From Escherichia coli (lineage in GTDB: Bacteria > Pseudomonadota > Gammaproteobacteria > Enterobacterales > Enterobacteriaceae): a stretch of DNA of 64,000 nt. Position numbers: made by a program. This document shows, piece after piece, positions 39,001 to 42,000 of this stretch. The stretch is taken from NCBI RefSeq assembly GCF_050320075.1, contig NZ_CP190019.1. One strand, 5' to 3'. Position 1 is the first letter of the stretch, and each line of letters opens with the position of its first letter.

Positions 39001-42000
39001 TGGCTGAGGCGATCCACTTGCGCTACCGCTCACTGATCAGATCGAACTTGAACTCGACGAGCAGCCAACCATCAGGCCGAGCGTGATCGCCAAAAAAAAC
39101 GGATCATGCGAAATCCTTCGTTGAGTTTGGCGCGGGTTTTAGCAAATCAGCTGGCCCGCGATCCGGTTGAGAGTGATCCGAAGCGGTCCTTGACGACCGG
39201 CACAAATCGGCCGATTCTGTTGAAAAAGTAGCTTTAGCGGCAGCCTGCCGATCAGGTGTGCCTGCTGTCGAAGTGGCTGCAAGCCACTTCAAGTTGCCTT
39301 CCGGCGTTTCACTGAGCGTCCTTGCTCAGGTTTAAGGGTTAATTTGAGGGTTTCTGCTCGTAGCAGGCATACCTATCCCGTCAGCGGTGGCCCTTGAGGC
39401 AAAAGCTTGGCCATGCGGCGCAGGTTCTGCACCATCGCAGCCAAGGTGAATTCGTCAGTGGCACCCGTTAGGCCACGCAGTCGTAAACGGTCGAGTTTCA
39501 TGATCCGTTTGAGGTGGGCGAAAAGCATCTCCACCTTCTTTCGTTCGCAGCGAGAGACGAGGTACTCCGGTGTCTTGGCGATGCGTCGAGCCACGTCGCG
39601 GGCAGCCTCATGGATGCTGCGGACGATCTTCCGATTCGGCGTGTTGGGGCAGCATTTCGCTTTCAACGGGCAGGTGGCGCAGTCGGTTTGGCTGGAGCGG
39701 TAAATGACGGTTTTGGCCTTAGTTACCCGCGACCTTTGCTGGGTGAAGGCGCGCCATTCACTGCGTAGCGGTTTGCCGGCTGGGCAGCGATATTCATTGG
39801 CGTCCTGACTCCAGTGAAAGTCGTTACTGGAGAGGCTGTCGTCCTTGCGCTCGGTCTTGTCCCACACCGGCACATGCGGTTCGATGTCCTTTTCTTCGAC
39901 CATCCAGGCCAGCATCGGGGCGGTGCCATAAGCGGTATCGCCGATAAGGCGTTCCGGTGTGAGATCGAACTGCGCCTCGACACGCTCGACCATCGTCCTA
40001 GTCGAATCGACTTCGGCGGTACGGTGCGCCGGGGTAGCTTCCACGTCCATGATCACACCGTGCTCAGTGTCGATCAGGTAATTCGTGGAGTAGGCAAAAA
40101 AGGCCGGGCCACCTGGCGCTGCTGTCCAACGGGACTGAGGATCAGTGAGCGAAATTTTCTTGGGAAGAGCCTCAGCCAGCGCCTCTTCATCAAGGGCTTC
40201 GAGGTACTCGCGCACTGCGCGGCTGCTGAGCTTTGGATCGTTCCAATCGACCTCATCTCCCGCCACCCCACGTTGCCGGCTGGCATCCGCCTTAATGATG
40301 CTGGCGTCGACGGCGAAACCTTCACCCTTGACTAGGCCGGCTGCCATGCAGCGCCGCAGCACCTCATTGAATAACCAGCGGAATAGATCGCTGTCACGAA
40401 AACGCCCATGGCGATTCTTCGAGAAGGTCGAGTGATTGGGGACTTCGTCTTCCAGACCCAACCGGCAGAACCAGCGATAGGCCAGGTTCAGGTGCACCTC
40501 TTCGCACAATCGCCGCTCGGAACGAATGCCATAGCAAGTAGCCGACGACCAGCATGCGCACCATCAACTCCGGGTCAATCGAGGGACGCCCGATGGGGCT
40601 ATAGAAATCTGCCAGGTAGGCACGTAGATCACTGAGATCCAAGCACTGGTCGATGCTGCGCAGGAGATGTTGGGCCGGGACGTGATCTTCCAGATTGAAC
40701 GAGTAGAACAGGCGCTGCTGTCCTCCCGGTAACTGTCCCATCATGCTGTTCGCCCCCACGCTCGCTGACAAAGCAATTTTGCCAACGGCATGGGGAGGCC
40801 GCTACTTTTTCAACAGAATCGGCCGCACACAGCCATTCGGCTCAACAGAACCCTGCCTTTACCCCACCAAACTCCGGAAACTCGCCCGGTAGTCCGTCGG
40901 CTTGAGATGCACATGTTGGCTGAGGTCGCCGGGTAGCGTGAACAGGCGCGGACCGTCCCGAAACTGGAACACGCGATACAGATGGAATTGATCGCCCGCC
41001 TCCTTGGAGAATTCGAGTTCGTTGTGGCTGACCAAGAAAGACGAGCCTACCCCGCCATTGGTGGTTTTCACCTCGATGAAGCGCTCATGGGCGTCCTCTT
41101 CGAACGACAGGATGTCGAACCCCGCACCGTCTCCCTGGGTGTCGGACACCCAATCCAGCCGCTGAAAAAGCTCTGGGTGGCCGAGCTCGGTCAGGCGTTG
41201 CTGTTCGTAGCCAATCACCCACTGCTCCCCTGCCCGGCCCAGCTTGCGGTTGGCTTCATCGCGAGCGGCATAATCGAACTTTCGCGGTAGGCGTTGCCGT
41301 AGAGATGCCGGGGTACGCACAAGCACTTCACGGGCGGGTGGTTCTACCAAAGCCGCTCGGTAGGTTTTGTCACCCGGAAGTTTTACCTCCTCCAGGGCAT
41401 CGACAAGAGCGCCGACCGTCTGCTGATGTTCCAGAACGTAGGCGTGTACGGATTTACGCAGCAGCAGTTGGCTGTTGCCGCGTGGCTTGTAGCCGTTGAT
41501 ATAGGGCAGGCCCAGGGCATCGAGTACGGCGCTAATGTTCTGGTGCTTGAGCTCGACTGAAGACTTGCTGCGACCGTTCAGCAGTTGGCGCAGTGCCTGG
41601 TTGTGCTCGGACTTGTTGTACGGCTCCCCAGCCGCCTCGGCACGCAGCATGTCGAAATAGTCTTCGACCGTGGCCAGGACCTCTTCTTCGGACCAGTCTT
41701 CGCCGATGCGAATGATGCGAAACCCGAGCCGCGTCAGCGCCGGAACGACGGTCGCCTCGCCACCGGAGAAGCTGTCAGCAGTGAGCGGGCCCTGCTCGGG
41801 AAATTGCTTGCCGAAGGCCACACCGGCGATGGCCTTGGAATCGCAATCGGTGCCGGTCTTCGGATCACGTACCAGGAAGTCGCGGGACTTGCCGTAGCCG
41901 TGGCGCGCCAGGAATTTCGTGCGGCCCAGTTGCACGAACTCATCGATGGCAGCCTGCACGGCGGCGGGGCTTCGAAGCTGGGAGAGTTGAGACACAGGGT

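What the first reader, a model, noticed from the sequence alone, without database searches (positions are those of the whole stretch)
39208..40825. IS with perfect 25-bp terminal inverted repeats and a transposase in two frames
The element boundaries are crisp, which suggests recent insertion, but the transposase is split with an overlap at about 40394-40509. This may be a frameshift mutation or programmed frameshifting.
Basis: seen in the sequence. Interest (0 to 1): 0.25.

Follow-up and report, generated by a model that had tools for sequence, protein, structure and literature searches.

The report
Frameshifted ISCfr1 insertion sequence copy
This is a copy of ISCfr1, a known mobile element that travels with a gentamicin-resistance gene on multidrug-resistance plasmids; one extra base has broken its transposase gene, so the finding is ordinary.

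Summary
A perfect 25-nt inverted repeat lies at 39208-39232 and 40801-40825, and a minus-strand transposase is split into two ORFs. The element is ISCfr1 (IS1182 family). It sits in the aac(3)-IId/tmrB module of an IS26-rich resistance region of the type found on E. coli IncF plasmids.

The split is a mutation, not programmed frameshifting:
- The window copy differs from the copy in pCTX-M3, the Citrobacter freundii plasmid the name refers to, by one inserted base at 40536/40537.
- Without that base the gene is a single 456-aa ORF.
- About 50 related elements keep the same frame at this site.
- The overlap has no slippery motif, and restoring the frame would need a +1 shift.
- NCBI's PGAP annotation labels an identical copy "frameshifted".

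The broken allele is common: 249 of 780 plasmid records and 201 of 325 E. coli records.

- The 25-nt repeat is a 20-bp inverted repeat, plus a 4-bp palindromic target duplication (GGCC), plus one chance base. The element proper is 39213-40820.
- Crisp ends do not mean recent insertion. The same left junction occurs in 640 plasmid records across many genera. The IS spreads as a passenger in the module.

The element is already known and of low interest.

The parts
39209..39212 (.). GGCC, copy of the 4-bp target-site duplication on the low-coordinate side
   Evidence: Independent insertions of 88-95% identical relatives are flanked by GGCC/GGCC (L005, L045, L086, L101) or GACC/GACC (L003) directly outside GATTCTG...CAGAATC.
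39213..39232 (+). Terminal inverted repeat at the 3' end of the transposase gene (IRR), GATTCTGTTGAAAAAGTAGC, 20 bp
   Evidence: It forms the inner 20 nt of the perfect repeat. Homology among relatives ends at this G.
39373..40744 (-). ISCfr1 transposase gene, frameshifted pseudogene (1372 nt; the intact allele is 1371 nt, 456 aa)
   Evidence: PGAP annotates the identical copy in NZ_CP029123.1 as 'IS1182-like element ISCfr1 family transposase, frameshifted' at the corresponding coordinates. The repaired protein scores 439 bits on NF033551 against a cut-off of 270. It also matches Pfam DUF772, DDE_Tnp_1 and DDE_Tnp_1_6.
40536..40537 (-). Site of the single-base insertion (AA on the + strand where the intact allele has A; coding strand TACTTGC versus TACTGC)
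   Evidence: Deleting one base here makes the 1618-bp stretch identical to the 1617-bp stretch of pNDM-HK and pCTX-M3. About 50 relatives read GGCTA(C/T)TGCTA(C/T)GG, encoding G-Y-C-Y-G.
40394..40744 (-). Upstream reading frame: 69 native N-terminal residues, then 47 out-of-frame residues and a stop
   Evidence: Pfam DUF772 matches only profile positions 1-28 here, at 23.8 bits.
39373..40509 (-). Downstream reading frame (378 aa from an internal TTG) holding the rest of DUF772 and the DDE domains
40801..40820 (-). Terminal inverted repeat upstream of the transposase gene (IRL), 20 bp, perfect match to the other end
40821..40824 (.). GGCC, copy of the 4-bp target-site duplication on the high-coordinate side
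38740..44420 (.). Conserved module that carries the IS as a passenger: 466-468 bp of left flank, ISCfr1, a DUF3883 gene, two small ORFs, an AAA ATPase (tmrB) and aac(3)-IId
   Evidence: Flank identity with L001, L002 and L128 extends 466-468 bp to the left and 3595-3596 bp to the right. Annotations come, and AAC(3)-II from NCBIfam. The module is described in PMC7096625. It lies between IS26 copies at 36243-37062 and 45216-46035.

Best explanation
The element is a copy of ISCfr1, an IS1182-family insertion sequence with a DDE transposase. Its transposase gene has been inactivated by a single-base insertion at 40536/40537. The element proper is 39213-40820 (1608 bp; 1607 bp in the intact allele). 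It has perfect 20-bp terminal inverted repeats and is flanked by GGCC on each side. Because the target duplication is a palindrome, the repeat appears to be 25 nt long. The copy cannot make full-length transposase. Its ends are intact, so an intact copy could in principle mobilise it in trans; this is inferred and was not tested. It spreads as a passenger in the aac(3)-IId/tmrB module, which sits between directly oriented IS26 copies in multidrug-resistance plasmids. The frameshift allele arose within this fixed copy and was then carried between plasmids and genera with the module.
For: - **Identity.** The window stretch is 100% identical to hundreds of plasmid copies, which RefSeq annotates as ISCfr1.
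- **Single difference.** It differs by exactly one base from the intact allele of pNDM-HK and pCTX-M3, which encodes the 456-aa protein WP_000971921.1.
- **Domain continuity.** The repaired protein gives a contiguous DUF772 match of 96.3 bits. The two separate ORFs score 23.8 and 46.8 bits on it. The repaired protein also passes the IS1182 equivalog model.
- **Relatives.** Eleven full-length relatives at 88-95% identity have one long ORF, and about 50 loci keep the frame at the site.
- **No recoding signal.** The 173-nt window in which a frame change could occur contains no X XXY YYZ heptamer and no homopolymer longer than 4 nt. The change needed is +1.
- **Annotation.** PGAP flags the identical copy as frameshifted.
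- **Allele frequency.** 249 plasmid records carry the insertion and 531 do not. In E. coli complete genomes the counts are 201 and 124.
- **Fixed position.** The left junction is identical in 640 of 703 matching plasmid records.
Against: No expression or transposition data were available, so low-level recoding or internal initiation at the TTG at 40509 cannot be formally excluded. Programmed frameshifting has been shown experimentally for some IS1182-family (DUF772) transposases (PMC3711429), so the idea has precedent in the family. No empty target site was found to confirm the GGCC duplication for this particular insertion. The two flanks also may not come from one original target.
Confidence: 0.95

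Rival explanations
1. Programmed ribosomal frameshifting or transcriptional slippage joins the two ORFs into a functional transposase, as in IS3, IS1 and some IS1182-family elements.
For: The two ORFs overlap. Recoding has been confirmed experimentally in a DUF772/IS1182 cluster, with up to 24% efficiency. The allele is common.
Against: An otherwise identical allele lacks the extra base and has one ORF. All relatives checked keep the frame at this site. No slippery heptamer or long homopolymer is present, and the shift needed is +1, not -1. The break falls inside the conserved DUF772 motif G-Y-C-Y-G-I-R-S-E. The allele's abundance is explained by its riding along with a resistance module found at a single fixed junction.
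Confidence: 0.02
2. The extra base is a sequencing or assembly error and the real gene is intact.
For: It is a single-base length difference.
Against: The same insertion is present in 249 plasmid records and 201 E. coli records from many laboratories, hosts and years. The site is AA versus A, not a long homopolymer.
Confidence: 0.02
3. The copy is a recent, independent insertion of an active ISCfr1 into this plasmid, as the crisp boundaries suggested.
For: The terminal repeats are perfect and GGCC lies on both sides.
Against: The same left junction occurs in 640 plasmid records. Both flanks are shared over 466 bp and 3.6 kb with pCTX-M3, pNDM-HK and an E. coli AR434 plasmid. No record has the joined empty site. 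The transposase is broken.
Confidence: 0.01

Closest known systems
ISCfr1 (IS1182 family), as carried by the Citrobacter freundii plasmid pCTX-M3 and by pNDM-HK
   Same: The sequence is identical over 1617 bp once the extra base is removed. Both flanks and the position next to the DUF3883 gene and aac(3)-IId/tmrB are the same.
   Different: There is one inserted base at window 40536/40537, which splits the 456-aa transposase gene. RefSeq labels such copies as frameshifted pseudogenes.
ISPsp5 of Pseudomonas sp. ADP plasmid pADP-1, and the IS1182-family element next to tnfxB/tmexCD in Pseudomonas and Aeromonas plasmids
   Same: They are 93-95% identical in nucleotide sequence and 1607 bp long. 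They share the same 19-20-bp terminal repeats, a single 456-aa ORF and a 4-bp duplication of GACC or GGCC.
   Different: Their transposase genes are intact and they sit at different insertion sites.
IS elements with programmed frameshifting (IS3 and IS1 families, the IS427 group of IS5, and the DUF772/IS1182 cluster of Antonov et al. 2013, PMC3711429)
   Same: They also have two overlapping transposase reading frames.
   Different: This copy has no slippery site, needs a +1 shift, and its two-frame arrangement is not conserved in relatives.

Membership tests
IS1182 family / ISCfr1 | The transposase matches the IS1182-family model above the curated cut-off | tested here: met
   NF033551 scores 439 bits against a cut-off of 270 on the repaired protein.
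IS1182 family / ISCfr1 | Domain architecture of N-terminal DUF772 plus DDE_Tnp_1 and DDE_Tnp_1_6 | tested here: met
   Pfam E-values are 1.1e-27, 3.7e-14 and 1.1e-18 on the repaired protein.
IS1182 family / ISCfr1 | Terminal inverted repeats bounding an element of about 1.3-1.95 kb (the size range is from my recollection of ISfinder) | tested here: met
   Perfect 20-bp repeats bound 1608 bp.
IS1182 family / ISCfr1 | Near-identity to the ISCfr1 copy of pCTX-M3 | tested here: met
   1617 of 1617 bases are identical after removing one base.
IS1182 family / ISCfr1 | Short target-site duplication | tested here: inconclusive
   GGCC lies on both sides, and relatives show GGCC or GACC duplications at 5 independent sites. 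Because the target is almost always GGCC, matching flanks do not prove a single event, and no empty site was found.
IS1182 family / ISCfr1 | Single uninterrupted transposase ORF (a functional copy) | tested here: not met
   A 1-nt insertion splits the ORF. The element is a member by sequence but a defective copy.
Programmed-frameshift transposases | Slippery heptamer or long A/T run in the overlap of the frames | tested here: not met
   No X XXY YYZ heptamer occurs in any frame, and the longest homopolymer is 4 nt.
Programmed-frameshift transposases | Two-frame organisation conserved among relatives | tested here: not met
   The intact allele and about 50 relatives are in one frame at the site.
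Programmed-frameshift transposases | A fusion protein is produced in vivo | not testable with these tools
   This needs a reporter assay or proteomics.

The most novel reading that the evidence does not exclude
The frameshifted allele might not be simply dead. Its high frequency (62% of E. coli records carrying ISCfr1) could reflect an advantage. Loss of transposase might stabilise the resistance module, or a truncated N-terminal or internally initiated product might act as a transposition inhibitor. Low-level +1 recoding might also still give some activity. Separately, ISCfr1-like elements appear to target the central GGCC of short REP-like palindromes in Pseudomonas, and I could not confirm that this has been described.
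Probability: 0.04. Interest if true: 0.3.

Novelty: already known. Interest (0 to 1): 0.05.

Why it matters
It matters little. ISCfr1 and the aac(3)-IId/tmrB/ISCfr1 module are described in the resistance-plasmid literature, and RefSeq already labels this allele as a frameshifted pseudogene. The practical value lies in annotation. The element's true limits are 39213-40820 with a GGCC duplication. The single-base allele is a convenient lineage marker for tracking the module, since it is present in about one third of plasmid records and about 60% of E. coli records that carry the IS.

Tried and rejected
- **Empty-site searches.** A 400-bp query joining the two flanks found no plasmid record spanning the junction. 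An exact 24-mer of the reconstructed site found nothing in 100,044 species genomes.
- **Possible empty site in Pseudomonas sp. CIP-10.** A match to the left flank alone in this plasmid shares only the 122 bp left of the IS and continues with different sequence. It is not the empty site of this insertion.
- **Other copies.** I looked for further copies of the IS ends in the window and found none.
- **Recoding signals.** A scan of the overlap for slippery heptamers and homopolymers found nothing.
- **TSD length.** I considered a 6-bp duplication, CGGCCG. I rejected it because ISPsp5 and the tmexCD-associated copy match over only 4 of those 6 positions.
- **Not consulted.** ISfinder itself could not be queried, so the ISfinder entry's stated length, inverted repeats and direct repeats were not checked.

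Full report
**Observation**

The window has a perfect 25-nt inverted repeat with arms at 39208-39232 and 40801-40825. The 25-mer occurs nowhere else in the window, and none was found in 100 shuffles. Two minus-strand ORFs lie between the arms. They are 40394..40771 (125 aa from a TTG start, 116 aa from the ATG at 40744) and 39373..40509 (378 aa). They are in different frames and overlap at 40394-40509.

**Identity**

- The upstream ORF matches only the first 28 positions of Pfam DUF772. The downstream ORF matches the rest of DUF772 plus DDE_Tnp_1 and DDE_Tnp_1_6.
- Joining the two frames gives a 456-aa protein with a contiguous DUF772 match of 96.3 bits.
- The joined protein scores 439 bits on NCBIfam NF033551, the IS1182-family transposase model, against a cut-off of 270.
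- The 1618-bp stretch matches 818 plasmid records, 751 of them at 99% identity or more. The hosts include Escherichia, Klebsiella, Acinetobacter, Pseudomonas, Salmonella and others.
- It also matches 334 records in complete E. coli genomes, where RefSeq calls the gene "IS1182-like element ISCfr1 family transposase".

**The split is a one-base insertion**

- Plasmid hits fall into two length classes. One is 1618 bp, identical to the window, with no protein-coding gene listed. The other is 1617 bp with an intact annotated transposase.
- Compared with pNDM-HK (L002), the only difference is an extra A at window 40536/40537. On the coding strand this reads TACTTGC instead of TACTGC.
- Removing that base makes the stretch identical to pNDM-HK and to pCTX-M3, the Citrobacter freundii plasmid that the name ISCfr1 refers to. 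Both encode the 456-aa protein WP_000971921.1.
- The insertion falls in the conserved motif G-Y-C-Y-G-I-R-S-E of DUF772.
The overlap is a by-product of ORF calling.

**Programmed frameshifting is rejected**

- Some IS1182-family (DUF772) transposases do use programmed frameshifting, confirmed by reporter assays at up to 24% efficiency (PMC3711429). The idea therefore deserved a test.
- A scan of species-representative genomes with the IS end gave many relatives in Pseudomonas, Stutzerimonas and Achromobacter.
- Eleven of the twelve full-length relatives examined, at 88-95% identity, have one long ORF. The exception, L107, is 1610 bp with its own indels.
- At the site itself, about 50 loci at 75-95% identity read GGCTA(C/T)TGCTA(C/T)GG, which is in frame. 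Only the window and its identical copies have the extra T.
- A frame change could occur only within a 173-nt window, from the last stop of the downstream frame (40566-40564) to the stop of the upstream frame (40396-40394). This window has no X XXY YYZ heptamer in any frame, and its longest homopolymers are CCCC and TTTT.
- The change needed is +1, not the usual -1.

**Sequencing error is also unlikely**

The exact 61-mer with the insertion occurs in 249 plasmid records, against 531 with a one-gap match. In E. coli records the counts are 201 and 124. The site is not a long homopolymer.

**True ends and target duplication**

- Independent insertions of relatives all begin GATTCTGTTG and end CAACAGAATC (ISPsp5 ends in T).
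- They are flanked by a 4-bp direct repeat. It is GGCC/GGCC in L005, L045, L086 and L101, and GACC/GACC in ISPsp5. L080 and L107 have imperfect pairs.
- By the same rule, the window element is 39213-40820 (1608 bp). It has 20-bp perfect repeats and GGCC at 39209-39212 and 40821-40824.
- GGCC is its own reverse complement, and the next bases happen to be C and G. That is why the repeat looks 25 nt long.
- The literature supports a 4-bp duplication in this family. ISPse1 of Paracoccus, captured by transposition, has 16-bp repeats and a 4-bp duplication (PMC3281130).

**The insertion is not recent**

- The 200-bp left junction is present in full in 640 of 703 matching plasmid records.
- The window shares 466-468 bp of left flank and about 3.6 kb of right flank with pCTX-M3, pNDM-HK and an E. 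coli AR434 plasmid.
- The right flank carries a DUF3883 gene, two small ORFs, an AAA ATPase (tmrB) and aac(3)-IId.
- This is the published aacC2-tmrB-orf192-orf228-orf1182-ISCfr1 module (PMC7096625).
- In the window it lies between two IS26 copies, at 36243-37062 and 45216-46035. Their transposase ORFs are on the same strand.
- No record has the two flanks joined without the IS, and the reconstructed empty site is absent from the species-genome collection.
- The IS is therefore a fixed passenger. The frameshift allele has been carried with the module into several genera, including Acinetobacter, Aeromonas, Klebsiella and Salmonella.

**Caveat on the duplication**

- Because relatives almost always insert at GGCC, matching GGCC on both sides does not prove that the two flanks come from one event.
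- The 122 bp immediately left of the IS (39090-39210) are 99% identical to a Pseudomonas sp. CIP-10 plasmid. There the sequence continues GGTCAGAAGCGGTC, a palindrome-like site resembling other targets of this IS group.
- The window's right flank is not that continuation. A rearrangement at one end, after an original insertion in a Pseudomonas-type sequence, is possible but was not tested further.

**Mechanism**

- Shown: the element has intact ends and a transposase gene broken after codon 69.
- Inferred: it cannot move by itself. An intact ISCfr1 could mobilise it in trans. In practice it spreads by IS26-mediated movement of the surrounding module and by plasmid transfer.

**Verdict**

This is a defective copy of a known IS in a known resistance module. 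The finding is already known and of low interest.

Noticed in passing
L086 771-2377, L045 5438-7044, L003 1506-3112, L005 1505-3111, L101 2883-4490: ISCfr1-like elements in Pseudomonas and Stutzerimonas genomes and Pseudomonas plasmids sit at the centre of short palindromes. The reconstructed empty site in L086, for example, is GTCCGCTACT-GGCC-AGAAGCGGAC. This suggests they target the central GGCC of REP-like hairpins.
   Followed up: partly
window 39090-39210; L127 3978-4099: The 122 bp just left of the IS are 99% identical to a Pseudomonas sp. CIP-10 plasmid. There the sequence continues GGTCAGAAGCGGTC instead of the IS. The window's right flank is not that continuation, so the two flanks may not be one original target.
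   Followed up: partly
window 15617-63638: There are nine elements with IS26-type 14-bp terminal repeats, seven of 820 bp and two of 819 bp. They cut the region into resistance modules: oqxAB, a dfrA12-aadA2 class 1 integron, mph(A), aph(3')-Ia and aac(3)-IId.
   Followed up: partly
window 37046-38350 (minus strand): A 434-aa ORF with weak matches to transposase models of the IS481, IS3 and IS630 families (rve-type integrase fold) runs into the IS26 end at 37049-37062. It is probably a truncated Tn-type transposition gene. In L001 the corresponding area is annotated as partial Mu-transposase and TniB pseudogenes.
   Followed up: no
window 47440-49107: A 555-aa ORF probably corresponds to the group II intron reverse transcriptase/maturase (ltrA) annotated at the edge of the matching stretch of the related plasmid p14406-FII.
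   Followed up: no
L060 3962-5691: Stutzerimonas kunmingensis has a full ISCfr1-like copy preceded by an extra 127-bp fragment of the other end in inverted orientation. This may be a nested or abortive insertion.
   Followed up: no
L008, L013, L014, L044, L073 and others: A second, more distant group of Pseudomonas elements, 75-79% identical over positions 124-1608, shares the same 18-nt terminal sequence at one end but diverges in the first 120 bp or so.
   Followed up: no
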